64,000 nucleotides of DNA from Planotetraspora sp. GP83 (GCF_041262585.1 NZ_JBGCBZ010000002.1:1-64000); one strand, 5' to 3'. Counted from the stretch's first letter, positions 1 through 29,429 are shown. Translations and numbers: made by a program. Notes: generated by a model from the sequence alone, not told the origin.

Positions 1-94
1 TGATGCCCAGTTCGAAACAGGACAGCAGGTTCATGAACCGCGCGGGTCCAACCATGTATTCACGGAATCGCGCGAGCGTGGCTTCTGCGGTCAT
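1..94 (-). CDS. 5' end (first 31 codons) of a second O-methyltransferase paralog; the gene body lies left of the window
   Basis: nt 1-94 are 100% identical to nt 1156-1249, the N-terminal codons of the OMT at 185-1249, including the ATG (rc cat 92-94). The flanking upstream sequence is only ~70% similar. Confidence 0.5.
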   Translation of the reverse strand, partial: MTAEATLARFREYMVGPARFMNLLSCFELGI

Positions 95-184
95 GTTCTG
101 ATCCCTCCGAGTCATGCGGTTCGTGAAAGAGGTGTACGGGGTGGATTCGCTATCCCTGCGTGGAGCCGGTCCCACGCCGGCCGG

Positions 185-1249
185 TCACACGGTCTTCGTC
201 GCGCTCAAAATGCCCTGCAAGGGGAGGGCGTCCGGGGGCAGTTCGGAAGGATGCTGGGCGATCGCCTTCGTGACGGTGAAACCGCATTCTTCCAACCAGC
301 TCCGGAACGTCGACAGCTTCTGCGGCCCGCCCTGCCCTGTAGCGCAGCCGAGGAAGAAGCTCGGGTAGTAGTCGACGGTGCCGGATTCCTTGATGTCCTC
401 GGAATAGATCGGCACCAGGATGTGGACCTGGCCGCCGACCTCCAGCGAGTCCCGGACGCCGTTGAGGATCTTGAACACCTCGCTCTTGTCGAACATGTTG
501 AGGAAGTGTTTGATCAGCACGACGTCGAAGCCCTTGGGAACCTCCACGAAGACGTCACCGCCGATGAACGAGCATTGCTCGTCCACCCCGTGCTCCCGGA
601 AGTTCCTCAGGCACGCCTCTTCCCGGCCGGGCAGGTCGAACGTCGTCACCCGTAGCCCGGGCGACGGCTTCATCTTGAGGGTGTGGATCGCGCCGAGGCC
701 GGTGTTGCCCGCCAGGTCGAGAACCCGCGAACCCGCCGGGATGTCGACGTTGTCGAAGAACCAGGGGTCGATGCGGGCGGTGACCGAGTCCATCAGCCTC
801 GACCAGGATTCCCGCAGGTCCGCGTGCACGGTCATGGCCTCGTACAGGTCCCCGTCGAACCCGTAGAGCTCGCGAAGGCCGACGGGCTTGCCGGTCCGCA
901 CGCTCTCGGTGAGGTAGAACAGCTGCCGGAGCGTGGTGACCTTGATCTTGTCCATGAAGTCGAGCGGCCGCTTGAGGTCGATGTCGTCCAGCTCAGCGAG
1001 CGCGTCGAGGGAGTACGCCCCGGACGCCTCGTCGTAGGCGACGAAACCCTCCTTGACCGGCAGGAACAGCAGCTGCTCCACGGCCGCGGGCTTGGCCCCG
1101 GCAACGGCGCCGAGCTCGACCGCGGTCATGCCGGGGCCAGCCCGGAGCGCGTCGATGATGCCCAGTTCGAAACAGGACAGCAGGTTCATGAACCGCGCGG
1201 GTCCAACCATGTATTCACGGAATCGCGCGAGCGTGGCTTCTGCGGTCAT
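185..1249 (-). CDS. class I SAM-dependent O-methyltransferase (family 2; N-terminal dimerisation/winged-helix domain plus C-terminal methyltransferase fold)
   Basis: 354-aa ORF. SAM-binding motif LDLAGNTGLG and the typical COMT-like architecture. ATG start with no long upstream extension. Confidence 0.8.
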   Translation of the reverse strand: MTAEATLARFREYMVGPARFMNLLSCFELGIIDALRAGPGMTAVELGAVAGAKPAAVEQLLFLPVKEGFVAYDEASGAYSLDALAELDDIDLKRPLDFMDKIKVTTLRQLFYLTESVRTGKPVGLRELYGFDGDLYEAMTVHADLRESWSRLMDSVTARIDPWFFDNVDIPAGSRVLDLAGNTGLGAIHTLKMKPSPGLRVTTFDLPGREEACLRNFREHGVDEQCSFIGGDVFVEVPKGFDVVLIKHFLNMFDKSEVFKILNGVRDSLEVGGQVHILVPIYSEDIKESGTVDYYPSFFLGCATGQGGPQKLSTFRSWLEECGFTVTKAIAQHPSELPPDALPLQGILSATKTV

Positions 1250-1607
1250 GCACTAATCCCTTCGAGTTGGTTACGCTCCAGCGGCACATAACGCGAACCC
1301 GCTGCCACCCCGATGAGGAGCACTGTGGGGCACCGCGCCGCGTCGCCACGATCCGGCGGGGACCCGGGCGGTCGCGGCTACCCACTCTCCAGCATCGGCC
1401 ACGGGACTTGGCTGGGACTGTTCGGCGAGTTGGCGTCGACTTGGCGGCCGCCACGATGGTGCGGCGGCCGGGCGCACATCGCCGCAGGTCTACCGCTGTA
1501 GACGTATCGACAACGGTGATGTCCGACCATTCGCGGCCGACCGCCTCACCAGTACCAGAATGAGTCGGTCACGCGGAATGCCACCACAGAACACCAATTA
1601 TCAGGTT

Positions 1608-1640
1608 TCTTGACAACCGCCTGTGGCGAATATACGATCG
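1608..1640 (+). promoter_or_regulatory. candidate sigma70-like promoter (TTGACA, 17-bp spacer, TACGAT) facing the SARP gene
   Basis: cTTGACAaccgcctgtggcgaataTACGATcgg lies in the AT-richer divergent intergenic region between the OMT and the SARP gene. Confidence 0.3.
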
Positions 1641-1957
1641 GTCGGAGTTTATAGTTCACAATTCAAGAGTTCGCGATTCGAGATCAGCCACCGGGTGGCG
1701 GCCACTTGGCCATGGCTGTTCATATCACGCGACGCGCGGTGACGAGTAGTTGTCCGCGCCGCCTCCAGGAAAGCCGACTTGGTGCTGGTCCACCGGCACC
1801 CGCGACTCGATTGTCGCGCGTGATCTGGTGACCTCACCAGTGCCAAGGCGGCAGGAGAACGTGTCCATGGCTTGGCCATTCGCGTTGTCCGGAGAGGAGA
1901 ATCGACATCCGGATTCACCTTCTTGGGCCGCTGCGGATTTTCTGCGCTGACGGCGAG

Positions 1958-2728
1958 ATGTCGCCGGTCGCGCGGAAACCGCGGCAGATTCTCGCTCTGC
2001 TCCTGCTCAACTACTCGCGGGTCGTGCCCACGGCCGCGTTGATAGATGAGCTGTGGGACGGGTCCGCACCGAAAACGGCGCGCGCGGCCGTGCAGATCTA
2101 CGTCTTCGAACTGCGCAAGAGACTCGCCGAGGCCACCGGCCTCAGCATGGACGCCGTCGGCAACGAGATCTTGCGCAGGGCGCGCAACGGCTACGAGTTC
2201 GTCGCCGAACCGACCTGGTTCGACCTACGGTCCTTCCGTCAACGGGAGCAGACGGGGGTGGCCGCCGTGGCCGAGGGCGACCTGATCAAGGCCGCTCGGG
2301 ACTTCCACACGGCGCTGTTGATGTGGAGTGGTCCGGCGTTGGCGGGCGTCGAACCGGGGCCGAGCATCCGGGCCGAGGTGGCCGGGCTCGAGCAGTCGAG
2401 GGCCACGATGCTGAACCACCGCATCGGACTGGAGCTGAGGTTCGGCAGACACCGGGAGATCCTGGGCGAGCTGATAAACCTGGTGTCGCACGACAGGTTC
2501 AACGAGGACCTGCACGCGCAGTTCATCATCGCGCTGTACCGCTGCGGCTACCGCGCCTGCGCGCTGGAGGCGTTCCGCCGGCTGCGCGAGGACATGGTCG
2601 CCAGGTTCGGCTTGGAACCGTCCCCCAAGTTACAGAGGTACTACCACGCGATCCTCACCTCCGACCCGGGGCTGGACGAGATGCCGGTATGGCCGCTGCC
2701 CAGCGAACTCCCGGCGCTGCAGCCGTAG
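1958..2728 (+). CDS. SARP-family transcriptional activator (OmpR-type winged helix + BTAD). The true start is probably ~19 codons upstream of the first ATG.
   Basis: Protein ends in the BTAD motif ...HAQFIIALYRCGYRACALEAFRRLR. The conserved SARP N-terminus (RIDIRIHLLGPLRIFCADGE) is encoded in frame upstream of ATG 1958, after a GGAGAGGAGA Shine-Dalgarno-like run at 1891-1900. In-frame TTA at 2630-2632. Confidence 0.85.
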   Translation: MSPVARKPRQILALLLLNYSRVVPTAALIDELWDGSAPKTARAAVQIYVFELRKRLAEATGLSMDAVGNEILRRARNGYEFVAEPTWFDLRSFRQREQTGVAAVAEGDLIKAARDFHTALLMWSGPALAGVEPGPSIRAEVAGLEQSRATMLNHRIGLELRFGRHREILGELINLVSHDRFNEDLHAQFIIALYRCGYRACALEAFRRLREDMVARFGLEPSPKLQRYYHAILTSDPGLDEMPVWPLPSELPALQP

Positions 2729-2741
2729 CGCAAGCCCGCCG

Positions 2742-3551
2742 CTACACGGCTTTGGCATTGCCGTAGCCGCCTGCGGCGTCGACGGCCGCGGTGTCGGCGA
2801 CCCGCATGACGTGCCACAGCCGGGAGATCCGGTTGGACGGCGCTATGCCGAGTTCGTCCTGTATGTTCCGCCGCAGCCGGTCGAACACCTCGAGGGCCTG
2901 GGTCCGGTATCCCGAACGGTACAGGGCGATCATGAACTGGGCGTGTAGCTCTTCGTGATGCGGATGCCGGACGACGAGCCTGGCCAGCTCGCTCAGCATC
3001 TCGCGGTGCCTGCCCATGTCCAACTGCGTACCGAAGAACAGGACCAGTGTGTCCAATCTGGACTGGTCGAGCTCGGCAACGGCGGCCCGGAGCAGCCTGC
3101 CGTGGTCGACGTCCAGCAACGCCGGGCCCCGCCACAACCCCAGTGCCTCACTCAGCAGCCGGCTGGCGCCGAGGACGTCCCCGGTGTTCAGCAGTGTCCG
3201 CCCCAAGGACCGCAGCCGGTGGAACTCGGGCAGGTCGAAGGACGCCTTGCCGAGGTCCAACCGGTAGCCGCCGACGTGAGTTTGCAGCAGGTCTTGTGCG
3301 ACCAGGTCGCGCGGAACACCGAGCTTTCGAGCGAACTCCGTACGTAGGTAGAAGATATGGGTCTGCAGCGTGGTCGCGGCGCTCCGCGGCGGCGAGTTGT
3401 CCCACAATTCGGTGATCAGCGAACTAGTCGACACCCGGTGCGGTTCGTTGAGCAGCAACAAGGCAAGCAACTGCCGAGGCTTCCCGGTAATGTGCACCAG
3501 GTCTTCGCCGTCTCGCTGGATGGACAGCGAACCCAACACCTGAAATTCCAT
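2742..3551 (-). CDS. SARP-family transcriptional regulator (second copy, convergent with the first)
   Basis: Internal Met gives MEFQVLGSLSIQRDGEDL... followed by a BTAD (HAQFMIALYRSGYRTQALEVFDRLR). The ORF-track start at 3647 adds 32 unlikely residues. Confidence 0.8.
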   Translation of the reverse strand: MEFQVLGSLSIQRDGEDLVHITGKPRQLLALLLLNEPHRVSTSSLITELWDNSPPRSAATTLQTHIFYLRTEFARKLGVPRDLVAQDLLQTHVGGYRLDLGKASFDLPEFHRLRSLGRTLLNTGDVLGASRLLSEALGLWRGPALLDVDHGRLLRAAVAELDQSRLDTLVLFFGTQLDMGRHREMLSELARLVVRHPHHEELHAQFMIALYRSGYRTQALEVFDRLRRNIQDELGIAPSNRISRLWHVMRVADTAAVDAAGGYGNAKAV

Positions 3552-3687
3552 AAACCCACCCAGATGCACCGCGTCGAGAATACCCGCCGGACGGCGGCCG
3601 CGCCAGCGCTGTCGCTCTCCTGGAGAACGTGCGACGACGGGCTTCACGGCGATTACGGCAAATAGCGCAATGCCCGCGCCGCCGGGT

Positions 3688-4650
3688 TTACCGCGCGAAG
3701 ACCAAAGTGGTGGGCGACGGCGTCGAATGGAACGAGACGTCGTCGAAACCCGCCTCCGTGAGCCAGGCCCGGTAGTCGGCCTGCCGCCAAGTCCCGCCCT
3801 TCTTGCTCTTGAGCAGCATTTCCGAGGCGAACAGGAGCGGGAAGAACGGGCCGCCGCGGTCGTCGTCGACGACGTAGTCGCAGACGACCAGCGTGCCCCC
3901 GGGCTTGAGGGCTGCCCTGACCTTCGCGAAAATCGCGATGTTGTCCTCCGGCCCTTCCTGGTGCGCGACGTGCGAGTACACCGCGATGTCGTAGGCGGCG
4001 GTGCCGAACTCCACAGTGTGGAGGTCCCCGTCGACGCAGGTGAACCGGTCGGCCACCCGCCGCTCCTTCAGCAGCCTGTGAGCGATCGCGTTGATCGGCC
4101 CCCAGTCGAGCTGGGTCGAGCGGGCGGCGGGGTTGAGCTCGAGCCAGATGGCCGAGAAGATGCCCGAGCCGCCGCCGAGGTCGAGGATCGAGACCTCCCC
4201 GGCCTCCGCCAGCCCCAGCAGGTCGGCGGCGACCGTCGCCACCGGGACCGACTGCGCGGCGATGGCGGGGACCACGTCCTCCCAATGCGGGTTGTCGGCC
4301 ACCTCGGTCATGGCGTCCACCGGTCCCCCTGTGCGAAACACCTCGAGCAGGCTTCCCATCTTGTCCATCTGCCCCAGCTTGAGCTTGGCGTAGCCGCTCA
4401 AGCTGGCGGGCCTGCCGTCGACAAGGAACGCGGCCGCTTCTGCGGTGTTGCGGTAGCTCGCGCCGTGCAGCTCGACCAGGCCCAAGCCGACGAGCCCGTC
4501 GAGCAGGGTCTGCGCACCCCGCTTCGAGATCCCAGCTTTGGCGGCCAGCTGGTCCGCAGTGTCCACACCCGCGTCGAGGTGGGTGAAAAGCGAGTACTTC
4601 GCCGCCGAACCGAGGATGCCGGTGGCCCAGTAGCCGTTGGCGATCTCCAT
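3688..4650 (-). CDS. O-methyltransferase (COMT-like: dimerisation domain + Methyltransf_2)
   Basis: Sequence from the internal Met MEIANGYWATGILGSA... SAM motif ILDLGGGSGIFS. Start set at ATG (rc cat 4648-4650). Immediately downstream of the type III PKS on the same strand. Confidence 0.8.
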   Translation of the reverse strand: MEIANGYWATGILGSAAKYSLFTHLDAGVDTADQLAAKAGISKRGAQTLLDGLVGLGLVELHGASYRNTAEAAAFLVDGRPASLSGYAKLKLGQMDKMGSLLEVFRTGGPVDAMTEVADNPHWEDVVPAIAAQSVPVATVAADLLGLAEAGEVSILDLGGGSGIFSAIWLELNPAARSTQLDWGPINAIAHRLLKERRVADRFTCVDGDLHTVEFGTAAYDIAVYSHVAHQEGPEDNIAIFAKVRAALKPGGTLVVCDYVVDDDRGGPFFPLLFASEMLLKSKKGGTWRQADYRAWLTEAGFDDVSFHSTPSPTTLVFAR

Positions 4651-4748
4651 GATCCGGTCCGGCCTCGGTTGGTCGTTACTCACGCTGCCTCCTGAGTCCT
4701 GCGTGTAGGTGGCACGCGACCGCGCGCCGATGTTCCGGCGGCCGGCCC

Positions 4749-5846
4749 TCAGTGGGACGCCGATACGGCCTCGGGAATCCGCTCCATGCTCGCCGGCGCG
4801 TCCAGGGACCAACTACCCACCGCCATTTCCGCGGTGATGCCCGGTCCGAAACCGGCGATCACACCGGTGGCACCGGGTGTCATCGTGTCTTCCTCGAACA
4901 GCCTGCGCAGCGCGTCGAGCACCACAGCGCTGGCGATGTTGCCGTACTCGGTCAGCGTCGCCCAGCTGTGGCGGAACATGCTGTTGTCGACACCGAGGTA
5001 CTTGCTCAGGTCGGCCAGGATCCGCGGGCCGCCCGCGTGGATGACGTAGAAGTCGAGGTTGCCGACGTCCCAGCCGTGGTCGAGGGCGAGTTCGCGCAGC
5101 ACCGGGGCGAGCGGCTCCATCGTCCCGGGCACCCGGCGATCCAGTTGGAAGTGGAAGCCGGTGGAGCGCACGGCGTAGGAGATCCAGTTCTCGGTGTCCG
5201 GGATGATGTAGGAGGCGTTGCGCTCCAGCGCCACACCGTAGCCGCCGCTCCCCCGCACCACGGCGGCCGCGACCCCGTCTCCGAACAGCCCGTCGGACAG
5301 CAGGGACCCGACACCGTCGTCCTCGGGCTGGTAGCACAGCGAGCACAGCTCGCAGGAGACGATCAGGACGTTGTTGTCCGGATAGGCCATGCAGAAGTCG
5401 TGGGCGCGGTTGATCGCCGCGCCGCCCGCCGCGCAACCCAGCTGCGCGATGGGAATCTGCCGGGTGTTGTACCGGAATCCCATGTTGTTGATCAACCATG
5501 CGGTCTGCGACGGCATCGTGAACCCGGTGCACGACACGAAGATGATCGCGTCGATGTCCTGCGCCGTCAGCGAGGCGTTCGCCAGGGCCTCCTCGATGAC
5601 CACGGGGCACCTCTTCTGCGACTCCAACTCGAAGATGCGGTTGCGCTCCTCGAAGCCGGGGTGGCGCAGCGTATCCTCGATGGGCTGCACCAAATGCCGC
5701 TTCTGCACGCCCGTGTTCCTGATCAATCGGAGCGCCAACGGAAGCTGCGGCTTTCCGGCGTGTGCCTTCTCGGCGAATTTCAACGTGTCGTCCAGCGTGA
5801 TGACATATTCCGGCACACGCACCGACGGCTTGCATAACGTTGGCAT
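4749..5846 (-). CDS. rppA: type III polyketide synthase, RppA-like 1,3,6,8-tetrahydroxynaphthalene (THN) synthase
   Basis: 365 aa. Cys-His-Asn triad contexts are present (FVSCTGF, YVIHAGGP, GNIASA). Near-collinear with RppA as recalled from memory: MxTLCxPxVxVPEHVIT..., QIPIAQLGCAAGGAAINRAHDFC, GFGPGITAE. Confidence 0.9.
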   Translation of the reverse strand: MPTLCKPSVRVPEYVITLDDTLKFAEKAHAGKPQLPLALRLIRNTGVQKRHLVQPIEDTLRHPGFEERNRIFELESQKRCPVVIEEALANASLTAQDIDAIIFVSCTGFTMPSQTAWLINNMGFRYNTRQIPIAQLGCAAGGAAINRAHDFCMAYPDNNVLIVSCELCSLCYQPEDDGVGSLLSDGLFGDGVAAAVVRGSGGYGVALERNASYIIPDTENWISYAVRSTGFHFQLDRRVPGTMEPLAPVLRELALDHGWDVGNLDFYVIHAGGPRILADLSKYLGVDNSMFRHSWATLTEYGNIASAVVLDALRRLFEEDTMTPGATGVIAGFGPGITAEMAVGSWSLDAPASMERIPEAVSASH

Positions 5847-6000
5847 GTCTGGAGTCTCCTCCTGTAGAAGTCCACCCTCTGTGCGGAAAGCGCCCTTCCT
5901 GTACCCCCGGTAAAGCTGTCAGGTCACAACGCGCGGCATACGCCGCGCCGCGGATCGCCATCGGCTCGGAGATACACGTTCACTACCGTCGCCCATCTCG

Positions 6001-6030
6001 CTTGCCGTGGGCTTGGCGTGGACTTGGCAC
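6001..6030. promoter_or_regulatory. three direct repeats with 11-bp periodicity (CTTGCCGTGGG / CTTGGCGTGGA / CTTGGCAC) ~155-185 bp upstream of the rppA start; candidate SARP operator
   Basis: Seen directly. SARPs bind direct repeats spaced one helical turn apart near the -35 element of their target promoters. Confidence 0.3.
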
Positions 6031-6145
6031 CCCTTCCGGCGGCGGAGGAGGAAGACACTTGGGACGCGCTTGCCCCAACGGCGCGGTCGCACCGTCTGAC
6101 GAGGGTTCCGGTGTCGCACAGGGTGCAGGCGCCCGCGGCGGACTT

Positions 6146-6607
6146 CTATCCACTGTGGAGGGCGATGATCTCCTCCACCGTCCGGCGCAGCATGGCGATC
6201 CGGTCTTGACCGAGGTGCAGCACCCACTGCTGTTCGATGTCCCTGAGGATTCGCGCGGCGGCCGCCTGGCCCGCCACGCCCCGCTCGGTCAGCCGGATGA
6301 TCTTCGCCCGGCGGTCCTTCGGGTCGGTCGCCCGCTCGACGTAGCCGAGCCGCTCGAGTTCGTCGACCAGCTCGGCGATGGCCTGTTTCGTGAGCCCGGC
6401 GCGGTCGGCGAGCACGGTCAGCCGCGCCCCCTCCTCGTCGATGAACCGGAAGACGGAGCCGTGCCGGTACCGGATTCCCTCCAACCCCTCCTCGCCGAGC
6501 CGCTGGTGGAGCAACTCGATCGTGATGTCCTTGGCCCGTGTGAGCAGAGCGGGAAGCGGCGCCTGGCCCGCGTCCTCCTCGCCGCGCTCCCCGGATTGCG
6601 TCGTCAT
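6146..6607 (-). CDS. MarR-family transcriptional regulator
   Basis: Winged-helix region ...LTVLADRAGLTKQAIAELVDELERLGYVERATDPKDRRAKIIRLTERG. Start taken at ATG (rc cat 6605-6607) rather than the TTG at 6655. Confidence 0.8.
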   Translation of the reverse strand: MTTQSGERGEEDAGQAPLPALLTRAKDITIELLHQRLGEEGLEGIRYRHGSVFRFIDEEGARLTVLADRAGLTKQAIAELVDELERLGYVERATDPKDRRAKIIRLTERGVAGQAAAARILRDIEQQWVLHLGQDRIAMLRRTVEEIIALHSG

Positions 6608-6785
6608 CCCGAGCGACCTCTCTAATGCAGCCCACTTCGTCAGGCTGCTTGACAATACAATACTCCTAATAGGACAGTAGCTTTACTGAACTTGACAACC
6701 ATGATGCGACCGAGCGAGCCATCGTGTGTTGTCGTATGGCCGATCCAGTGGCGAATCCCCGAATACCGGTAGAGGTGGGAATTTG

Positions 6786-8204
6786 ATGAGCCGTTTCGAC
6801 CACGAGGGAAACAAGGTCACCGGCGTCGACGCCGCGGCGATCGACGCTTTGGCCAAGCAGGTGAAGGGTCCGGTGCTCACCCCTGACAACGAGCAGTACG
6901 ACGCCGAACGCGCCGGGCACCAGACCACCCGCTGGCACCGGCCCGACGTGGTAGTGGGCGCGATCGGGCCCGCCGACGTGCAGGCGGCGGTGGCGTTCGC
7001 GCACAGCCACGGACTCCCGGTGGCGGTGCAAGGCACAGGGCACGCGCTCTCCGCCGTCGCCGCCGAGGGCGGAGTGCTGATCAACACCTCACGGATGGCG
7101 GATGTCCGGGTGAATACCGAGGCGGGCACCGTGTGGGTGGGCGCCGGGACGAAGTGGGACCAAGTGATCCACGAGGCGGCAGCGGCCGGGCTGGCCCCGC
7201 TGTCGGGCTCGGCCCCGGGCGTCGGCGTGGTCTCCTACACCCTCGGCGGCGGCTTGGGCCCGCTGTCGCGGCGGTACGGGTACGCCGCCGACCATGTGCG
7301 CAGCATCGACGTCGTCACGGCGGACAGCACGCTGCGGCACGTCACCGAGACCTCCGACCCGGACCTGTTCTGGGCGCTGCGCGGCGGCCGGGACAACTTC
7401 GGCGTGGTGACCGGCATCGAGGTCGACCTCATGCCGATCACGACGATCTACGGCGGCGGACTGTTCTTCGACGCCGGGTCGGCCGCCGAGGTCCTCGACA
7501 CCTACGCGCAATGGACGACCACCGTGCCCGACGAGATGACCTCGTCGGTCGCGCTGATCTCCTTCCCCGAGGTCCCGGCGCTCCCGGAGCCGTTGCGCGG
7601 CCGCTACGTCGTCCACATCCGTATCGCCTACGCCGCAGACACCCTCGGGGCGGGCGAGGGCCTGGTGGCGCCGCTGCGGGCGCTCAACCCGTTCATCGAC
7701 ACCGTCGCCGAGATACCCTTCGCCCAGGCCGGATCCATCCACAACGACCCGCCCTTCCCGGGGACCTTCGAGTCCGGCACCGCCCTGCTGGGCGAGTTCG
7801 ACTCCGCCGCGGTGCGCGCCCTGCTCGAGCACGTCGGCCCCCAAGCACCGGTGCCGCACGTCGTCGAACTGCGCCACCTCGGCGGGCAGCTCGCCCGTCC
7901 CCCCGCCGTCCCGAACGCCGTCGGCCATCGCAACGCGCGTTACGTGATCAACGTGGTCTCCCGGCTGGAGCGCGCCGAGATCACCGCCGTCCGGCCCGCG
8001 CACGAGCGCGTGTTCGCGGCGATCATGCCGTGGACCACCGGCGGCCGGGCGCTGAACTTCATGATCGGCGAGAATGACGCCAAGGACGTGGCCTCCGCGT
8101 ACGACCCCAAGGACTACCAGCGCCTGACCGAGGTCAAGGCCGTCTACGACCCCCAGAACATCTTCCGGCTCAACCACAACATCCCGCCCGCCGTCGCCGG
8201 GTGA
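6786..8204 (+). CDS. FAD-linked oxidase, berberine-bridge-enzyme-like (FAD_binding_4 + BBE C-terminal domain)
   Basis: Start at ATG 6786 after GGAGGTGGG. GxGH-type FAD-binding region (VAVQGTGHALS) and the C-terminal BBE signature YDPQNIFRLNHNIPP. Confidence 0.8.
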   Translation: MSRFDHEGNKVTGVDAAAIDALAKQVKGPVLTPDNEQYDAERAGHQTTRWHRPDVVVGAIGPADVQAAVAFAHSHGLPVAVQGTGHALSAVAAEGGVLINTSRMADVRVNTEAGTVWVGAGTKWDQVIHEAAAAGLAPLSGSAPGVGVVSYTLGGGLGPLSRRYGYAADHVRSIDVVTADSTLRHVTETSDPDLFWALRGGRDNFGVVTGIEVDLMPITTIYGGGLFFDAGSAAEVLDTYAQWTTTVPDEMTSSVALISFPEVPALPEPLRGRYVVHIRIAYAADTLGAGEGLVAPLRALNPFIDTVAEIPFAQAGSIHNDPPFPGTFESGTALLGEFDSAAVRALLEHVGPQAPVPHVVELRHLGGQLARPPAVPNAVGHRNARYVINVVSRLERAEITAVRPAHERVFAAIMPWTTGGRALNFMIGENDAKDVASAYDPKDYQRLTEVKAVYDPQNIFRLNHNIPPAVAG

Positions 8205-8307: not shown

Positions 8308-8325
8308 AAGCCGGCCCGGCCGGCT
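8308..8325. terminator. GC-rich palindrome (AAGCCGGCC-CGGCCGGCT) between convergent genes; putative bidirectional terminator
   Basis: Perfect 8-bp inverted repeat abutting the stop codon of the hydrolase gene (rc TGA 8325-8327) and ~100 bp after the oxidase stop. Confidence 0.3.
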
Positions 8326-9161
8326 CAGCCGGCCGCACGCGCGGCGTCCTCGATGAGGCGGGTGGTGGTCCCCGGGTGGCTGATCATGGCGACGTGGGAG
8401 GCGGCGACCTCGACGACGTGGGCCTTGGCACGCTCGTAGAAGAAGCGTTCCAGGGCGGGCGGGATGGCCTTGTCCTGGGTGGCGACCAGCCCCCAGGAAG
8501 GGATCGAGTGCCAGGCGGCGGCCTTGGTCACGTCGGTGAAGGAGGAGGCGCTGAAGGGCCGCTGGGTGGCCTGCATGAGCCGGGTGGTGGAGGCGGGCAG
8601 GTCGGCGGCGAACGCGGCCCGGAACTTGTCGGCCCGCAGGTAAAGGTCGGTGCCGGTGGTGCCGTCCGGGTTGGCGTAGGGGACCTCCTGCACGGCGGCG
8701 GGGATCTGGGTGCCTGGGTATTTGTTGATCAGGACGCCGAGCTGTTCGCCTTCGTCGGGAACGAACGCGGCGATGTAGACCAGCGCCTTGACGTTGGGGT
8801 TGTCGGCGGCGGCGTTGGTGATCACGGCGCCGCCGTAGGAGTGGCCGACCAGCACGATCGGGCCGTCGATCGACTTCAGGACGCTGGCGATGTACGGCGC
8901 GTCGGTGGGCAGCCCGCGCAGCGGGTTGGCGGGGGCGATCGTCTGGTAGCCGTCGTGCTGGAGCCGGCTGATCACGCCGTTCCAGTTGGAGCCGTCGGCG
9001 AAGCCGCCGTGCACCAAGACGATCGTGGGCTTGGCCGTGGGAGAAGCGCCCTCGTGCGCGGCGGTCGCGGACGCGGACGGCACGGTGAGCAGCGCGGCGG
9101 CCAGGCCGCCGGCAGCGACGGCGAGCACCATACGGCGCGGCAATGCGGAACGAGCGTTCAT
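8325..9161 (-). CDS. secreted alpha/beta-fold hydrolase (signal peptide)
   Basis: Start at ATG (rc cat 9159-9161): MNARSALPRRMVLAVAAGGLAAALLTVPSASATAA..., GHSYGG nucleophile elbow. The longer 482-aa ORF is a GC-frame extension overlapping the next gene. Confidence 0.75.
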   Translation of the reverse strand: MNARSALPRRMVLAVAAGGLAAALLTVPSASATAAHEGASPTAKPTIVLVHGGFADGSNWNGVISRLQHDGYQTIAPANPLRGLPTDAPYIASVLKSIDGPIVLVGHSYGGAVITNAAADNPNVKALVYIAAFVPDEGEQLGVLINKYPGTQIPAAVQEVPYANPDGTTGTDLYLRADKFRAAFAADLPASTTRLMQATQRPFSASSFTDVTKAAAWHSIPSWGLVATQDKAIPPALERFFYERAKAHVVEVAASHVAMISHPGTTTRLIEDAARAAG

Positions 9162-9274
9162 GTCTGTCTCCAGTGGGAGTTGGTTGGGGGAACCGGGTGG
9201 GCCCGGCCGACTCGGTGAACCCAGGAGCGGCGCTCGGCCTGTACGGCACGGCCCCTGGTCAGCCAGGGTCGTCG

Positions 9275-9949
9275 TCAGGCGGCGGCCTGGCGGATGAGGG
9301 CGGCCACCGCCGCGGGCTGCGACAGGTAGACCGAGTGGCTGCCCGGCGTCTCCGCGACGGTCGCCCCGGCGCGCTGCGCCATGGCGCGCTGGGCCGGCGG
9401 CGGGATCATCCGGTCGTCGGTCGCCACCAGGTACCAGGAAGGCTTGGCGCGCCACGCGGGTTCGGCGACCGCGCCGCCGAGGGCGTCCACGCCCCACGGG
9501 ACCTGCGAGTCGGCCATGAACGCCGCCTGGTCGGCGGGCAGATCTCCCGCGAACGACGCGGCGAACTTGTCCCGGTCGAGGAAGAGGAACCCGTTCACCG
9601 GGGGCAGGATCGGCGGGACGGGCGCGCCGGGCGGCGGGTCGGCGATGAGCGTGTTGACCGACTCGCCCTTGTCCGGGGCGAAGGCTGCGATGTACACGAG
9701 TGCCGCGACGTCCGGGTGGCCGCCCGCCTCGGTGATCACGACGCCGCCGTAGGAGTGGCCGACCAGGACGCACGGGCCGTGCAGGCCGTCGACGACCTGG
9801 TGAGTGGCGGCGACGTCCCCGGCCAGGGACAGGGTCGGGTTCTGCACGACCGACACGCGGAAGCCGTCGGCGACGAGCAGGTCGTAGACGGCCTGCCAGC
9901 CGGAGCCGTCGACGAAGCCGCCGTGGACGAGCACGATGTTGCGGATCAT
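9275..9949 (-). CDS. alpha/beta-fold hydrolase (cytoplasmic paralog of the preceding gene)
   Basis: MIRNIVLVHGGF... and GHSYGG. ~50% identical to the neighbour but lacks a signal peptide. Confidence 0.75.
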   Translation of the reverse strand: MIRNIVLVHGGFVDGSGWQAVYDLLVADGFRVSVVQNPTLSLAGDVAATHQVVDGLHGPCVLVGHSYGGVVITEAGGHPDVAALVYIAAFAPDKGESVNTLIADPPPGAPVPPILPPVNGFLFLDRDKFAASFAGDLPADQAAFMADSQVPWGVDALGGAVAEPAWRAKPSWYLVATDDRMIPPPAQRAMAQRAGATVAETPGSHSVYLSQPAAVAALIRQAAA

Positions 9950-10022
9950 GGCGTTCCTCTGCGAGGGGAGAAGGGGTGGAACACGTCCCACGGTAGGAAC
10001 CGGGCGGCTCCCCTCGCGTACG

Positions 10023-12734
10023 TCAAATGATGTAGTCGCCCTCCCTCGCGGCCATGAGACGGCTCAGCTCACCGCGCGTGGTGATGCCGAGCTTGGGGAA
10101 GATGCGCGACAGGTGCGTGCTGACCGTGCGGGGCGAGACGAACAGCCGCTGGCCGATGTCGCGGTTGGTCAGGCCGTCCGCGACGAGCTGCGCGATCTGG
10201 AGCTCCTGGGCGGTGAGCCGGTCGCGGGTGTCGTGCTTGCGGCGGATCCGCTCGCCGCTCGCGCGCAGCTCGCGCAGCGCGCGCTCCGACCAGGGCACCG
10301 CGCCGAGCGCGTCGAACGCCTCAGCCGCCGCGCGTAGCGGCGCCCTGGCCTCGGCGGCACGGCGCTGGCGGCGCAGCCACGCGCCCCACGCGTGCCGCAG
10401 CCGCGCCCGTTCGAACGGCCAGCCGACCAGGTCCTCGCGCAGCGCCTGCGTGAACAGCTCCTCGGCGGTCTCGTCGGGCGCGGTGACGGCCCTGACGTAG
10501 GCGAGCGCCACGTGCCCGACCGGCGACCCGCTCTCCTCGATCACCGGGGCCAGCTCGTCTGCGACCGCGCGCAGCTCCTCCTGCCGTCCGCTGAGCAACG
10601 CCGCCTCCGCCAGGTGCGGCAGCGCCCACAGCCGCATGTACTGGCTGTAGCTGACTTCGCTGGGGTCGAAGATCGGGCGCAGCGCGTCCCAGGCCGCGCC
10701 GAAGGTCCCGTCGGCCAGCTCGGCGGCTCCGCGCGCGAGCTGCACCAGGGCCAGCATCGGGTGCGCGCCCGCCGACAGGAACGCCCGTTCGGCCTGCGCG
10801 GCGAGGTCGCGCGTGACGTCCGTCGCGCCGCGCAGCGCGTGGATCTCGGCGGATACTGCGTCCGCGGTGAGCACCCACTGCGGCTGCCTGGTCTCCACGG
10901 CCAGCGCCCTGGCCTCGGCGGCGGCGACGACCCCGAGCCGGGTGTCGGCGAGTCGCGCCGCCGACGTCGTCTGCCCGACGAGCGCCTGCGCGAGCGCCCC
11001 GAACGGCCCCCGCGCCCGCATCCCCGCGATCGCCTCCGCGTACAGCCGCGCGCCCAGCGGGAACGCCCCGACCGCGTTCGCCGCGTTGCCCAGCAGTTGC
11101 AGGTTGTGCGGGCTGACCCAGCTCGCCGTGCTCAGCGCGTCGAGCCGGGCCAGCGACTGCCTGCCGCGCTCCACCGGGGCGATCACCGCGAGCGACGCGA
11201 CGATCTGCGGGTCGTCCGGAGGCACGGCCAGCCGTTCGATCGCGGCGAGCAGGGGCGCGCGGACCTCCCGCGTGGGGTTGGAAAAGAACCAGCGCGTGCT
11301 GACGCTGGCCAGCCAGCGCAGCGCGAACGCCGAGCCGTCACGTGCGCGCATCTCGTCGAGGAACCCGGGGAGGTCGGACAGCCGGTCCACGCCGGTCCAC
11401 ACGAAATGCAGGGTGATGTCGCGGAAGTAGGTGAGCCTGGACCGGTCGACCGGGGCGAGGTCGGCGTCCTCCGCGCGGCCGACGAGGCGTTCCAGGGCGG
11501 CGCGGTCGCCGAGGTCGAAGGCCATCGCGGCGGCGTCGATCAGCCGCGCGCCCCGGCGGGCCGGGTCGGCGCTGAGGTAGGCGGCGCGCTCCATCGCCTC
11601 CAGCGCAAGCCCCGACGCGCCCCTGCCGTGGGCGCGCATCGCGGCGGCGGCGAGCCCGGCTGCGACGTCGTCGTCGTGGGACGTCGCGGCGGCCGCCCGG
11701 TGCCAGATCCTGCGGTCGTCGTCATCGGGCAGGGCGGCGGCGAGCGCGGCGTGTGCGTCGCGTAACAGGTCGGCCCCGGCCGCCTGGACGATCGCCGACC
11801 TGATCAGGGGGTGCCGGAACCTGACGCGCACGGCGTCGGCCACGACCAGCCCCGCCCGGGTCGCGGGGGCCAGCGCGGCCGCCTCGATCGGCGCGCCCGC
11901 CAGCAGGGACGCGACCCGTGTGTTCTCCTCGATCGCGTCGTGCTCGTTGACGGCGGCGATGAGAGCCAGGGTCCTGGTGTCGGCGGGCAGCGCGGCGAGC
12001 GCCTGGGCGAACGCGCGTTCCAGCCGCTCCGTCAGAGGCAGCCTGCTCGACGCGAGCATCTCCTGGTCCTGCCGGGACGCCAGCGCGGCGAACTCCATCA
12101 GCGCGAGCGGGTTGCCCGCCGCCTCCGCCAGCACGCGGGCGCGCAGCGCGGTGCCCAGGTCGGGCGCGACCCTCGCCAGCAGCTCCGCCGCCGCCTGGTG
12201 GGTCAGCGGCGGCACGGTCAGCGCGGGCAGCCCCGACGCGGCGAGCCTGGCCTGGGAGTCGGCGTCGTCGCGCAGGGTCGCCAGCAGCACGACGGCGTCC
12301 GAGCGCAGCCGGCGGCCGACGAACGCGAGCGCCTCCCAGCTCGGCCCGTCCAACCAGTGCGCGTCCTCGACGGCGAGCACCACGGGCGTGTCGCCCGCCA
12401 GCGCGGACAGCCGGTGCAGCACGGACATCGCGGTGCGCAGCGGCCCGCCGTCGAGGTCACCGGGCTCGAGCCCGGTCCCCGCGAGCAGCCTGCGCAGACC
12501 CTCGTACGGGACCTGGGCTTCGGCGGGCACGCCGGTCACGGTCAGCACGCGCGCGCCCCTGGCCTCGGCCTCGGCCGTGGCGGCCCCGAGCAGCGCCGAC
12601 TTGCCGACGCCCGCCGCGCCGCTCAACACGAGCGCCCCGCCGCCTTCCTTCGCGCCGTCCAACAGTGCCAGCAGGTCGCGCAGTTCGGCGTCTCGTCCCA
12701 CGAGGGCGTGCAGTGTCACGAGGACGATGCTCAC
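10023..12734 (-). CDS. LAL-family regulator (N-terminal AAA/Walker NTPase + C-terminal LuxR-type HTH)
   Basis: 903 aa. Walker A GAAGVGKSALL. C-terminal LTAQELQIAQLVADGLTNRDIGQRLFVSPRTVSTHLSRIFPKLGITTRGEL. Confidence 0.85.
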   Translation of the reverse strand: MSIVLVTLHALVGRDAELRDLLALLDGAKEGGGALVLSGAAGVGKSALLGAATAEAEARGARVLTVTGVPAEAQVPYEGLRRLLAGTGLEPGDLDGGPLRTAMSVLHRLSALAGDTPVVLAVEDAHWLDGPSWEALAFVGRRLRSDAVVLLATLRDDADSQARLAASGLPALTVPPLTHQAAAELLARVAPDLGTALRARVLAEAAGNPLALMEFAALASRQDQEMLASSRLPLTERLERAFAQALAALPADTRTLALIAAVNEHDAIEENTRVASLLAGAPIEAAALAPATRAGLVVADAVRVRFRHPLIRSAIVQAAGADLLRDAHAALAAALPDDDDRRIWHRAAAATSHDDDVAAGLAAAAMRAHGRGASGLALEAMERAAYLSADPARRGARLIDAAAMAFDLGDRAALERLVGRAEDADLAPVDRSRLTYFRDITLHFVWTGVDRLSDLPGFLDEMRARDGSAFALRWLASVSTRWFFSNPTREVRAPLLAAIERLAVPPDDPQIVASLAVIAPVERGRQSLARLDALSTASWVSPHNLQLLGNAANAVGAFPLGARLYAEAIAGMRARGPFGALAQALVGQTTSAARLADTRLGVVAAAEARALAVETRQPQWVLTADAVSAEIHALRGATDVTRDLAAQAERAFLSAGAHPMLALVQLARGAAELADGTFGAAWDALRPIFDPSEVSYSQYMRLWALPHLAEAALLSGRQEELRAVADELAPVIEESGSPVGHVALAYVRAVTAPDETAEELFTQALREDLVGWPFERARLRHAWGAWLRRQRRAAEARAPLRAAAEAFDALGAVPWSERALRELRASGERIRRKHDTRDRLTAQELQIAQLVADGLTNRDIGQRLFVSPRTVSTHLSRIFPKLGITTRGELSRLMAAREGDYII

Positions 12735-20805: not shown

Positions 20806-21231
20806 TTACTTCGGCAGCACGCCGATTTGCTGCAGTACGGCGAGCACGTCGTAATAGTCCGTCTGCCGCCTGATCAGGCCGTCTTCGGTGAACTCCATGA
20901 GGCTCAGCCCGCGGTTGTCGATGCGGCTGCCTCTGGCGGCGCTTTCCGGCAGGTGCGGGAAGTTGCCCAGCAGGGTTCCCGTCCCGTTCCAGGGCACGGC
21001 TGCCCGGCGGTCCGCGATGACGGCCTCGCCCATCTCGACATGGGTGTCCGGACACGCCTCGACCCATATCCGCATGAAGTCCGCCAGCTCCTTGCGTCCC
21101 TTGAAGGTCCGCCGAAGGGCGATGTCCTCGAAGACGGCGTCCTCGGTGTAGCACTCCGCCCAGCGCTCGGCGTCGTAGCTGTTGAAGGTGGCGAACCACT
21201 TCTCGATCGTGTCGGCCGGATCGTTCGTCAT
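20806..21231 (-). CDS. SnoaL-like / NTF2-fold protein (polyketide-cyclase-like or ketosteroid-isomerase-like)
   Basis: 141 aa. MTNDPADTIEKWFATFNSYDAERWAECYTEDAVFEDI... is a typical SnoaL_2 N-terminus. Confidence 0.65.
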   Translation of the reverse strand: MTNDPADTIEKWFATFNSYDAERWAECYTEDAVFEDIALRRTFKGRKELADFMRIWVEACPDTHVEMGEAVIADRRAAVPWNGTGTLLGNFPHLPESAARGSRIDNRGLSLMEFTEDGLIRRQTDYYDVLAVLQQIGVLPK

Positions 21232-26707: not shown

Positions 26708-26714
26708 GGGCGCG

Positions 26715-28790: not shown

Positions 28791-28802
28791 CCAAGTCCCC
28801 TG

Positions 28803-29429
28803 TCAGTGGAGGTCGTAGGGCATGACCCAGAAGAACTCGCCCTCTGGGTCGTAGTCGAAGATGAGGGCGGAGCTGCCGGCGCGGAGATCGTCGGCTCCCG
28901 TCTGGCGCACCTGGACGAGGGCCGAGGAGCCGTCCTCCGCCGTGACCTCGGCCTGGCCGAAATCGGGTCCGACCCGTCCAGTACGGATGACGCACATGCG
29001 GCCGACGAAGTCGCTCCGCGACGGCGCGGGCACGGCCGGGAACAGCGCGCGGATCGGCAGCACCAACAGGCGGGTGCACAGCCAGCCGGCGAGAAGCGCG
29101 ACCAGAAGGACAGCGGTCCGTGCGGCCGTCCCCTCCACCAGCGCCGCGCCGGCGAGGCTGACGAACCAGGAGATCACCACCATGAGCGAGATCACGACGC
29201 TGGCCGGCACTCCGCGCAGCCCGATGCCGGTCAGGAGATCGTCGGGCAACTCCAACCCCAGGCCCCCCAGCGGCACGAGCAGCCAGTAGCCGATGACGAC
29301 CAGCAGCATGAAGCTGAACAGGACCGCCGGGAACCCGAGCGCCGCGCCCACGAAATCCCGCATTGACTCCCACCGTTTTGCGAGCGTCTCCCCCGAGACG
29401 TAACGCATTATTGCCCGATAGCCAGGCAA
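28803..29429 (-). CDS. NfeD-like membrane protein (TM helices + C-terminal OB-fold), the usual operon partner of SPFH proteins. Alternative ATG start at 29408.
   Basis: 3-4 TM helices followed by a soluble beta-rich tail ...GRMCVIRTGRVGPDFGQAEVTAEDGSSALVQVRQ.... 12-nt gap to the flotillin gene. Confidence 0.7.
   Translation of the reverse strand: MPGYRAIMRYVSGETLAKRWESMRDFVGAALGFPAVLFSFMLLVVIGYWLLVPLGGLGLELPDDLLTGIGLRGVPASVVISLMVVISWFVSLAGAALVEGTAARTAVLLVALLAGWLCTRLLVLPIRALFPAVPAPSRSDFVGRMCVIRTGRVGPDFGQAEVTAEDGSSALVQVRQTGADDLRAGSSALIFDYDPEGEFFWVMPYDLH

What the first reader, a model, noticed from the sequence alone, without database searches (positions are those of the whole stretch)
1..8204. 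Partial THN-synthase (RppA-type) polyketide cluster with multiple O-methyltransferases, two SARPs, MarR and a BBE-like oxidase
The type III PKS at 4749-5846 is near-collinear with RppA (THN/flaviolin synthase). It forms an apparent operon with an OMT directly downstream. A second OMT and at least the start of a third lie further left, two SARP activators converge between them, and a divergent MarR/BBE-oxidase pair lies to the right. There is no P450 or MomA-type cupin monooxygenase in view. This suggests an O-methylated, oxidatively tailored naphthoquinone/flaviolin-type product whose cluster continues beyond the left window edge.
Basis: partly seen in the sequence, partly recalled or inferred. 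Interest (0 to 1): 0.55.

Follow-up and report, generated by a model that had tools for sequence, protein, structure and literature searches.

The report
Fibrostatin-type naphthoquinone gene cluster, right half
This is about half of a real but ordinary antibiotic-type gene cluster: a counterpart of the recently described fibrostatin cluster, which makes methylated naphthoquinones from a tetrahydroxynaphthalene (THN) synthase.

Summary
The type III PKS (4749-5846, minus strand) is a genuine RppA/THN synthase. It is 70.9% identical, without gaps, to the solved S. coelicolor enzyme, and all diagnostic residues are kept.

The window comes from Planotetraspora sp. GP83. Its seven complete genes are 68-86% identical, one for one, to the fibrostatin cluster of Streptomyces bambergiensis/prasinus (Sci Rep 2025). 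I tied that cluster to my comparison locus by exact matches of the paper's knockout protospacer and primers.

The closest syntenic loci (Microbispora, Sphaerimonospora) show what lies past the left edge: the rest of the third methyltransferase, an FAD monooxygenase, a large SARP, a P450, a second MarR, a dehydrogenase and a third SARP. The right boundary is at 8204.

- Two of the three "OMTs" belong to the Fur6/NapB5 family of aromatic C-methyltransferases. Only the one beside the PKS resembles the O-methyltransferase Fur4.
- The BBE-type oxidase is closest to McrA, a hydroquinone-reoxidising enzyme.

New here: conserved SARP boxes (CCAAGYC heptamers, 11-nt spacing) at both operon promoters.

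Verdict: correct reading, a new member of a known kind, modest interest.

The parts
1..94 (-). N-terminus (31 aa) of a third methyltransferase, MT_C. It is a Fur6-family paralogue and runs off the left edge of the window.
   Evidence: tblastn: 96.8% identity over 31 aa to both Fur6-like methyltransferases of the fibrostatin cluster. ATG at 94 follows GGAGGGA. Full-length orthologues follow MT_B in L001-L003.
185..1249 (-). MT_B, a Fur6/NapB5-family methyltransferase and predicted aromatic C-methyltransferase. It belongs to a distinct paralogue clade.
   Evidence: Pfam Methyltransf_2 + Dimerisation. Fur6 structure 8HAR: E 3e-161, 67% identity. 81.9% identical to the 354-aa methyltransferase of the fibrostatin cluster. 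Fur6 Tyr137, Trp150 and His249 are kept; Asp252 is Asn, Tyr98 is Phe and Phe297/298 are Tyr.
1405..1444 (-). SARP box 2: four heptamers (CCAAGTC, CCAACTC, AACAGTC, CCAAGTC) at 11-nt spacing. The last one ends 8 nt before a -10-like GATGCT (1391-1396). This is the promoter of the MT_B/MT_C operon.
   Evidence: Conserved in the alignment of 9 orthologous upstream regions. Coordinates and whole-window uniqueness of such arrays.
1907..2728 (+). SARP_b, a small SARP activator. The first canonical start is ATG 1958, but homology begins at 1907 (ATC).
   Evidence: Pfam BTAD 2.5e-37 + Trans_reg_C. 67.7% identical to the 273-aa SARP of the fibrostatin cluster. N-terminus analysis. TTA at codon 225.
2742..3551 (-). 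SARP_a, a small SARP activator. The ORF extends to 3647; the likely start is ATG 3551.
   Evidence: Pfam BTAD 7.3e-39 + Trans_reg_C. 74.0% identical to the 269-aa SARP of the fibrostatin cluster, with alignment from residue 33.
3688..4683 (-). MT_A, a methyltransferase in an operon with the PKS. It is the predicted O-methyltransferase, the counterpart of Fur4.
   Evidence: Pfam Methyltransf_2 + Dimerisation. 81.9% identical to the 332-aa methyltransferase of the fibrostatin cluster. About 66% identical to the methyltransferase at the fur4 position of furaquinocin-like locus L070. Only 23-26% identical to the Fur6-like methyltransferases.
4749..5846 (-). RppA-type type III polyketide synthase (1,3,6,8-tetrahydroxynaphthalene synthase).
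   Evidence: 1U0M: E 5.6e-170, 70.9% identity over 347 ungapped residues. Cys138/His270/Asn303, Tyr224, Ala305 and Cys106/168/171 are present. 100% identical to a Planotetraspora sp. GP83 protein and 85.8% to the fibrostatin PKS.
5999..6027 (-). SARP box 1: three heptamers (CCAAGTC, CCAAGCC, GCAAGCG) at 11-nt spacing. The last one ends 8 nt before a -10-like GACGGT. This is the promoter of the PKS/MT_A operon.
   Evidence: One match in 64 kb against 0.05 expected. Conserved in 7 loci from 5 genera.
6146..6607 (-). MarR-family repressor, divergent from the oxidase gene. The ORF extends to 6655.
   Evidence: Pfam MarR_2 5.6e-11. 75.2% identical to the fibrostatin-cluster MarR, with alignment from residue 17.
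6639..6653 (.). Candidate MarR operator: imperfect palindrome GTCAGGC-T-GCTTGAC overlapping a TTGACA box in the MarR/oxidase divergent region.
   Evidence: This is the best conserved block of the intergenic alignment of 7 loci. Its function is inferred.
6786..8204 (+). BBE-subfamily flavin oxidase, McrA-like. The ORF starts at 6726. It is the last gene of the cluster on this side.
   Evidence: Pfam FAD_binding_4 + BBE. 9R43 McrA: E 2e-122, with the covalent-FAD His conserved. BagK/FevA1 model: 492 bits, below its cut-off of 800. 78.5% identical to the fibrostatin BBE oxidase. Genes to its right have no counterpart in 80 related loci.

Best explanation
Window 1-8204 is the right-hand half of a roughly 15-gene cluster in Planotetraspora sp. 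GP83. The cluster is orthologous to the fibrostatin cluster of Streptomyces bambergiensis/prasinus.

Shown here:
- The PKS is a THN synthase by sequence and active-site residues.
- Each of the seven complete genes has a 68-86% identical counterpart in the genetically validated fibrostatin locus.
- The closest syntenic genomes continue leftwards with the third methyltransferase, an FAD monooxygenase, an AAA-type SARP, a P450, a second MarR, a zinc-type dehydrogenase and a third SARP.

Inferred mechanism:
1. RppA condenses five malonyl-CoA units into THN.
2. The flank monooxygenase, or air, adds the fifth oxygen. This gives flaviolin or its hydroquinone, 1,2,4,5,7-pentahydroxynaphthalene.
3. The two Fur6-like paralogues MT_B and MT_C add the two C-methyl groups. 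The Fur4-like MT_A adds O-methyl. All three probably act on the reduced hydroquinone form, as Fur6 and Fur4 do.
4. The McrA-like BBE oxidase reoxidises hydroquinone to quinone, or oxidises the C-methyl phenol to a quinone methide. A quinone methide would explain the thiol (N-acetylcysteine) adducts known as fibrostatins.

Inferred regulation: the SARPs activate the two biosynthetic operons through CCAAGYC heptamer arrays that replace the -35 region. MarR controls itself and the oxidase gene through a conserved palindrome.
For: - PKS.
- Source organism and family size.
- Fibrostatin cluster description and PKS knockout: PMC12402327.
- The paper's protospacer and both primers match L081 exactly, inside its PKS gene.
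- Gene-by-gene identities, window versus L081.
- Synteny and left-flank content.
- Fur6 is a C-methyltransferase acting on the hydroquinone, and Fur4 is an O-methyltransferase: PMC11969235. NapB5 and its homologues: PMC12670698.
- Methyltransferase clades and residues.
- McrA relationship.
- SARP boxes.
- MarR palindrome.
- Right boundary.
Against: - The window's own left flank could not be retrieved, so its content is inferred from relatives.
- The PfkB kinase of the Streptomyces cluster is absent from the three closest loci, and the gene blocks are arranged differently. The end product may therefore differ.
- The fibrostatin link rests on one PKS knockout and an LC-MS-level identification ('fibrostatin C/D/E'). 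No tailoring step has been tested.
- MT_B has Asn where Fur6 has the essential Asp252, so its chemistry (C- versus O-methylation, and position) is uncertain.
- McrA's proposed base Asp308 is Ser here.
- SARP_b lacks a canonical start codon for its full-length form.
- Nothing shows that the cluster is expressed.
Confidence: 0.8

Rival explanations
1. It is part of a THN-derived meroterpenoid cluster of the furaquinocin, naphterpin or napyradiomycin type. Such clusters also combine a THN synthase with Fur4- and Fur6-like methyltransferases.
For: MT_B is 67% identical to Fur6. MT_A homologues sit at the fur4 position in furaquinocin-like loci such as L070.
Against: No aminotransferase, AMP-ligase (Fur5-like), prenyltransferase or mevalonate-pathway gene occurs in the window or in 10 kb either side in the syntenic loci L001-L004 and L081. 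MT_B and MT_C form clades separate from the Fur6-proper and NapB5-like clades.
Confidence: 0.03
2. It is a simple pigment or UV-protectant locus. It would make either flaviolin/HPQ-melanin, as RppA with CYP158A2 or MomA does, or per-O-methylated THN, as the Nocardia sp. CS682 thn cluster does. No C-methylation or quinone chemistry would be involved.
For: Same PKS family. The Nocardia cluster also combines a THN synthase with three methyltransferases (PMC6358914). A P450 lies in the flank of relatives.
Against: The flank P450 is closest to PDB 3P3L/3P3O, and no CYP158-named entry is among the 60 best hits shown. There is no glycosyltransferase or MFS gene as in thn. The one-to-one orthology at 68-86% is with the fibrostatin cluster. 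That cluster has a BBE oxidase, an FAD monooxygenase and Fur6-type methyltransferases, all of which the pigment loci lack.
Confidence: 0.07
3. The orthology is as in the best explanation, but the MarR/BBE-oxidase pair is a self-resistance module of the McrA type rather than a biosynthetic step. It would keep a reductively activated alkylating quinone in its harmless oxidised form.
For: The closest solved relative is the mitomycin resistance oxidase McrA, at E 2e-122 with the covalent-FAD His conserved. The pair sits at the cluster edge under its own MarR with a conserved operator. The known products are thiol adducts at a methyl carbon, the outcome expected from a quinone methide.
Against: McrA's proposed catalytic Asp308 is not conserved. 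BagK/FevA1 and EncM, which are biosynthetic enzymes, are also significant relatives. The authors of the fibrostatin paper propose biosynthetic roles. No experiment discriminates between the two.
Confidence: 0.25

Closest known systems
Fibrostatin biosynthetic gene cluster of Streptomyces bambergiensis AC-800 (= S. prasinus), Sci Rep 2025, PMC12402327
   Same: Every complete gene of the window has a counterpart: PKS 85.8%, MT_A 81.9%, MT_B 81.9%, BBE oxidase 78.5%, MarR 75.2%, SARPs 74.0% and 67.7%. The same SARP boxes stand before both operons. The flank genes (FMO, large SARP, P450, MarR2, ADH, SARP3) are shared between the relatives L003 and L004.
   Different: The host is from a different family (Streptosporangiaceae). 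The two gene blocks are joined in a different order. The PfkB kinase is absent from the closest relatives. The PKS has a TTA at codon 4, and SARP_b has ATC in place of ATG. The product of this cluster is unknown.
Furaquinocin genes fur1 (THN synthase), fur4 (O-methyltransferase), fur6 (C-methyltransferase), PMC11969235
   Same: The same three enzyme families act on a THN/flaviolin scaffold. MT_B is 67% identical to Fur6 (8HAR) and keeps Tyr137, Trp150 and His249.
   Different: This cluster has no aminotransferase, diazotisation, prenylation or mevalonate genes. It has two Fur6 paralogues instead of one, and MT_B has Asn at Fur6 Asp252.
Nocardia sp. CS682 thn cluster (thnA, thnM1-3, thnG), PMC6358914
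   Same: A THN synthase together with three methyltransferases.
   Different: The thn cluster has a glycosyltransferase and MFS transporters. It has no oxidases and no SARP or MarR genes. Its products are O-methylated naphthalenes, not quinones.
McrA, mitomycin C resistance oxidase of Streptomyces lavendulae (PDB 9R43; bioRxiv 10.1101/2025.11.28.691146)
   Same: BBE-subfamily flavoprotein, E 2e-122 over the full length, with the covalent-FAD histidine conserved.
   Different: Several active-site residues differ: Asp308 is Ser, Tyr304 is Gly and Glu298 is Asp. The genomic context is a naphthoquinone cluster rather than a mitomycin cluster.
S. coelicolor/S. griseus RppA with CYP158A2 or MomA (flaviolin, HPQ melanin)
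   Same: The same PKS, 70.9% identical to S. coelicolor THNS.
   Different: The partners differ. No cupin appeared among the window's annotated genes, and the window has no P450 or FAD monooxygenase orthologue of the related clusters. The tailoring genes here are methyltransferases and flavoenzymes.

Membership tests
RppA-type THN synthase (type III PKS) | Cys-His-Asn catalytic triad (Cys138, His270, Asn303 in S. coelicolor numbering) | tested here: met
   All three residues are present at the same positions in an ungapped alignment.
RppA-type THN synthase (type III PKS) | RppA-specific Tyr224 and Ala305, which I recall govern malonyl-CoA starter use and chain length in S. griseus RppA mutagenesis studies | tested here: met
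   Tyr224 and Ala305 are present, as are Cys106, Cys168 and Cys171. Cys184 is Ser.
RppA-type THN synthase (type III PKS) | Closer to characterised THNS than to any other type III PKS class | tested here: met
   1U0M scores E 5.6e-170. The next best are Pks11 at 8e-37 and PKS18 at 3e-34. The DpgA model scores 138 bits against a cut-off of 425.
RppA-type THN synthase (type III PKS) | Produces THN from five malonyl-CoA units | not testable with these tools
   This needs an enzyme assay or heterologous expression.
Fibrostatin-type gene cluster | One-to-one orthologues of PKS, MarR, BBE oxidase, three Methyltransf_2 genes and two small SARPs | tested here: met
   68-86% identity for the seven complete genes, and 96.8% over the 31-aa fragment of the third methyltransferase. 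The comparison locus is tied to the published knockout by exact oligonucleotide matches.
Fibrostatin-type gene cluster | FAD monooxygenase, P450 and AAA-type SARP in the same cluster | tested here: inconclusive
   These genes are not in the window. They are present directly beyond the third methyltransferase in L001-L003, the closest relatives. The window's own flank was not retrievable.
Fibrostatin-type gene cluster | PfkB-family kinase (SBAM_000978) | tested here: not met
   Absent from the window and from L001-L003. Present in Streptomyces loci, and in Catenulispora at 56% identity. It may be accessory: an 80% identical PfkB lies next to a SAM synthetase in L070.
Fibrostatin-type gene cluster | Produces fibrostatins (N-acetylcysteinyl naphthoquinones) | not testable with these tools
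   This needs metabolite analysis.
Fur6/NapB5 aromatic C-methyltransferases | Conserved active-site Tyr137, Trp150 and His249 (Fur6 numbering) | tested here: met
   All three are present in MT_B and in all MT_C orthologues. These residues are named in PMC11969235 and PMC12670698.
Fur6/NapB5 aromatic C-methyltransferases | Asp252, required for Fur6 activity | tested here: not met
   MT_B and its whole clade have Asn (one member has Thr). MT_C orthologues have Asp, and NapB5-like proteins have Pro. The position is therefore variable within the family and probably tunes specificity.
SARP-activated promoters | Direct heptamer repeats at 11-nt periodicity, with the 3' repeat 8 nt upstream of the -10 hexamer (architecture recalled from the ActII-ORF4, DnrI and AfsR literature) | tested here: met
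   Three repeats at 5999-6027 and four at 1405-1444. Both arrays end 8 nt before a GAnGnT hexamer. They are unique in the 64 kb and conserved across genera. Binding has not been tested.
THN-derived meroterpenoid clusters | Aromatic prenyltransferase, mevalonate pathway genes and 8-aminoflaviolin genes (aminotransferase, Fur5-type ligase) | tested here: not met
   None occur in the window or in the syntenic loci. The aminotransferase and the Fur5-type AMP-ligase are present in the furaquinocin-like control locus L070; no prenyltransferase or mevalonate gene appeared among its ten ORFs searched.
McrA-type hydroquinone oxidase | Covalent FAD histidine (His64) and proposed base Asp308 | tested here: inconclusive
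   The histidine is conserved (GTGH motif), but Asp308 is replaced by Ser.

The most novel reading that the evidence does not exclude
The real product may be a bioreductive alkylating naphthoquinone rather than the fibrostatins themselves. Once reduced, it would form a quinone methide. The fibrostatins would then be its mycothiol or N-acetylcysteine detoxification products. In this reading the MarR/BBE pair is a McrA-type self-resistance module that holds the compound in the oxidised form. The MT_B clade (Asn252, Tyr297/298) would be an uncharacterised regiochemical variant of the Fur6 C-methyltransferases. The module would be conserved across at least six actinomycete genera.
Probability: 0.25. 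Interest if true: 0.5.

Novelty: new member of a known kind. Interest (0 to 1): 0.3.

Why it matters
- It extends the fibrostatin-type cluster, so far tied to one Streptomyces strain by a single knockout, to rare actinomycetes. It shows that the cluster is a widespread, conserved family.
- It gives testable reassignments of the tailoring genes: two C-methyltransferases plus one O-methyltransferase, an McrA-like oxidase, and a kinase that may serve SAM recycling.
- It identifies the likely SARP and MarR operator sites. These could be used to switch the silent cluster on.

None of this overturns current understanding.

Tried and rejected
- Exact-sequence look-ups of the window's PKS and MT_B found no contig. 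The genome collection does not hold Planotetraspora sp. GP83. The true left flank was therefore not obtained.
- NCBIfam gave no equivalog-level names. The DpgA, FlxJ and BagK/FevA1 hits are all far below their cut-offs.
- I considered the Nocardia thn cluster first and set it aside as only a distant relative.
- An inverted-repeat search of the MarR/BBE region with a 6-nt seed found nothing. The palindrome emerged only from the cross-species alignment.
- The two alpha/beta-hydrolases and the LAL regulator right of the oxidase were tested as possible cluster members. They were rejected because no related locus has a counterpart.
- PADLOC found nothing for the large DUF3686 operon.
- A literature check that PDB 3P3L is AurH found no paper. 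That identification rests on my memory only.

Full report
**Observation**

The window is high-GC actinomycete DNA. I picked genes by third-position GC and confirmed them with Pfam.
- a Methyltransf_2 gene at 185-1249 (-);
- the first 31 codons of another at 1-94 (-);
- two converging SARP genes at 1958-2728 (+) and 2742-3647 (-);
- a Methyltransf_2 gene at 3688-4812 (-), directly downstream of a type III PKS at 4749-5846 (-);
- a MarR gene at 6146-6655 (-), divergent from a FAD_binding_4/BBE oxidase at 6726-8204 (+).

Alignment to orthologues moves four starts inward: MT_A to the GTG at 4683 (after GGAGG, 65 nt past the PKS stop), SARP_a to 3551, MarR to 6607 and the oxidase to 6786. No P450, FAD_binding_3 monooxygenase or dehydrogenase orthologue of the related clusters occurs anywhere in the 64 kb.

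**The PKS**

The PKS aligns without a gap to the solved S. coelicolor THN synthase 1U0M, at E 5.6e-170 and 70.9% identity over 347 residues. The next solved relatives are Pks11 and PKS18, at about 1e-35. The DpgA model scores 138 bits against a cut-off of 425. Cys138, His270, Asn303, Tyr224, Ala305 and Cys106/168/171 are all in place. More than 1,800 database proteins match at E <= 1e-50, and many of them are named THN synthase. One protein is 100% identical and comes from Planotetraspora sp. GP83, which identifies the source organism.

**Identity of the cluster**

Exact look-ups of the window's own proteins failed. The 94% identical Microbispora bryophytorum orthologue gave a locus (L001) with this order: BBE(-), MarR, PKS, MT, SARP, SARP(-), MT, MT, FAD monooxygenase, AAA-type SARP, P450.

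A genome-collection scan with MT_B returned 79 loci. A tblastn map of all cluster proteins showed the same order in Sphaerimonospora, Microbispora, Actinokineospora, Catenulispora, Actinophytocola and a MAG. It showed a rearranged version in the Streptomyces prasinus group.

A literature search found the fibrostatin cluster of S. bambergiensis AC-800. The paper states this strain has 99.97% ANI to S. prasinus (PMC12402327). That cluster contains a type III PKS whose knockout abolishes fibrostatin C, a BBE-like oxidase, an FAD hydroxylase, a kinase, methyltransferases and a P450. I fetched the S. prasinus locus (L081). The paper's CRISPR protospacer and both screening primers match it exactly, all inside its PKS gene. 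L081 is therefore the validated cluster.

Window proteins are 85.8% (PKS), 81.9% (MT_A), 81.9% (MT_B), 78.5% (oxidase), 75.2% (MarR), 74.0% and 67.7% (SARPs) identical to their L081 counterparts.

**Extent**

Right of the oxidase lie two alpha/beta-hydrolases and a LAL regulator. None has a counterpart in any of the 80 related loci. In L001 the same side carries a beta-lactamase and integrase remnants. The cluster therefore ends at 8204.

On the left, L002 and L003 continue with MT_C, FAD monooxygenase, AAA-SARP, P450, MarR, a zinc-type dehydrogenase and, in L003, a third small SARP. All of these are also conserved, at 71-81% identity and in the same relative order, in the Streptomyces locus L004. 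The window thus holds about half of a roughly 15-gene cluster.

**Methyltransferases**

MT_B matches the Fur6 crystal structure 8HAR at E 3e-161. Fur6 has been shown to C-methylate C3 of 1,2,4,5,7-pentahydroxynaphthalene, the reduced form of flaviolin, and not the quinone. Fur4 O-methylates the reduced product (PMC11969235). NapB5, Fnq27, NphJ and Mcl21 are homologous C-methyltransferases (PMC12670698).

A neighbour-joining tree of 100 Fur6 homologues from the fetched loci, plus Fur6 itself, separates four groups:
- a Fur6-proper clade;
- a NapB5-like clade with Arg98/Pro252, which includes S. aculeolatus;
- an MT_C clade that keeps Asp252;
- an MT_B clade with Phe98, Asn252 and Tyr297/Tyr298.

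All four keep Tyr137, Trp150 and His249.

MT_A is unrelated to these at the sequence level (23-26% identity). It is about 66% identical to the methyltransferase that occupies the fur4 position in a furaquinocin-like locus, whose order is THNS, aminotransferase, MT, FMN reductase, AMP-ligase, Fur6 at 88%.

The fibrostatin paper calls for one or two O-methyl and two C-methyl groups. That fits one Fur4-like and two Fur6-like enzymes. This assignment is an inference. The Asn at position 252 of MT_B leaves its exact chemistry open.

**The oxidase**

Its best solved relative is McrA (9R43, E 2e-122), followed by EncM. McrA is a BBE-subfamily flavoprotein that reoxidises reduced mitomycin before it forms a quinone methide (bioRxiv 10.1101/2025.11.28.691146). 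The covalent-FAD histidine is conserved here. McrA's proposed base Asp308 is Ser.

Two roles are plausible:
- oxidation of the hydroquinone intermediates on which the methyltransferases act, or of the C-methyl phenol to a quinone methide, which the fibrostatin authors also consider;
- McrA-like self-protection.

**Regulation**

Aligning the PKS upstream regions of seven loci revealed three heptamers, CCAAGTC, CCAAGCC and GCAAGCG, spaced 11 nt apart. They lie at 5999-6027 (-). There is one match in the window against 0.05 expected by chance.

The MT_B upstream region carries four such heptamers at 1405-1444 (-). In both promoters the last heptamer ends 8 nt before a conserved GAnGnT hexamer. 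As I recall it, this is the geometry described for ActII-ORF4, DnrI and AfsR sites. A scan of the whole window finds such arrays nowhere else.

The MarR/oxidase divergent region has a conserved imperfect palindrome, GTCAGGC-T-GCTTGAC (6639-6653), overlapping a TTGACA box. Binding is untested in all cases.

**Comparison and verdict**

The cluster is not a meroterpenoid cluster, because it has no aminotransferase, Fur5-type ligase, prenyltransferase or mevalonate genes. It is not a thn-type cluster, because it has no glycosyltransferase or MFS genes. It is not the simple RppA/P450 pigment pair.

It is an orthologue of the fibrostatin cluster in a different family of actinomycetes, with these differences:
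- rearranged gene blocks;
- no PfkB kinase in the closest relatives;
- a TTA codon at position 4 of the PKS;
- an ATC where Streptomyces has the SARP_b start codon.

This is a new member of a known kind, and interest is modest.

Noticed in passing
window 1880-1960 (SARP_b N-terminus): Homology to other SARPs (IRIHLLGPLRIFCADGE) starts at 1907. S. prasinus has ATG at that position. The window and all three Streptosporangiaceae relatives have ATC, 7 nt after GGAGAGGAG. The first canonical start (ATG 1958) would remove 17 conserved residues. This could be a conserved non-canonical start codon or a weakened regulator.
   Followed up: partly
window 5835-5837 (PKS codon 4) and SARP_b codon 225: The rare TTA leucine codon is codon 4 of the PKS. 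It is conserved in the window and in L001-L003, but is TTG, CTT or ATT in other genera. This may be bldA-type translational control of the biosynthetic gene itself.
   Followed up: partly
L081 4767-5741 and L070 15341-17736: The PfkB kinase of the fibrostatin cluster was proposed in the paper to make a phosphate leaving group. It is about 80% identical to a PfkB that sits beside a SAM synthetase in a furaquinocin-like locus. That suggests an adenosine kinase for SAM recycling instead.
   Followed up: partly
window 21641-29429 (-): An operon encodes a 1688-aa protein (DUF3686 'ATPase involved in DNA repair', DUF7902 and an AAA domain), a 691-aa protein and a 208-aa protein. The last two have no Pfam match at E <= 1e-5, and none of the three has a PADLOC match at E <= 0.001. 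It may be an uncharacterised defence or repair system.
   Followed up: partly
window 8325-12734 (-): Two tandem alpha/beta-hydrolase genes (about 8325-9050 and 9275-9991) and a 903-aa LAL-type regulator (AAA_16 + GerE) lie directly beside the cluster. They are not conserved with it.
   Followed up: yes
window 36118-37986 (-) and 41016-42612 (-): A further large SARP (BTAD + NB-ARC) and separate NB-ARC and TPR proteins lie near luciferase-like monooxygenase and NmrA genes. They are unrelated to the naphthoquinone cluster.
   Followed up: no
loci L019-L080: The pairing of THN synthase with Fur4-like and Fur6-like methyltransferases is very widespread in actinomycetes. The Fur6 family splits into clades that differ at positions 98 and 252 and that track cluster type: Fur6-proper, NapB5-like with Pro252, and the two fibrostatin-type paralogues.
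   Followed up: partly
window 20806-21231 (-): An isolated SnoaL-like polyketide cyclase-family gene lies 12 kb from the cluster. No related locus supports a link to it.
   Followed up: no
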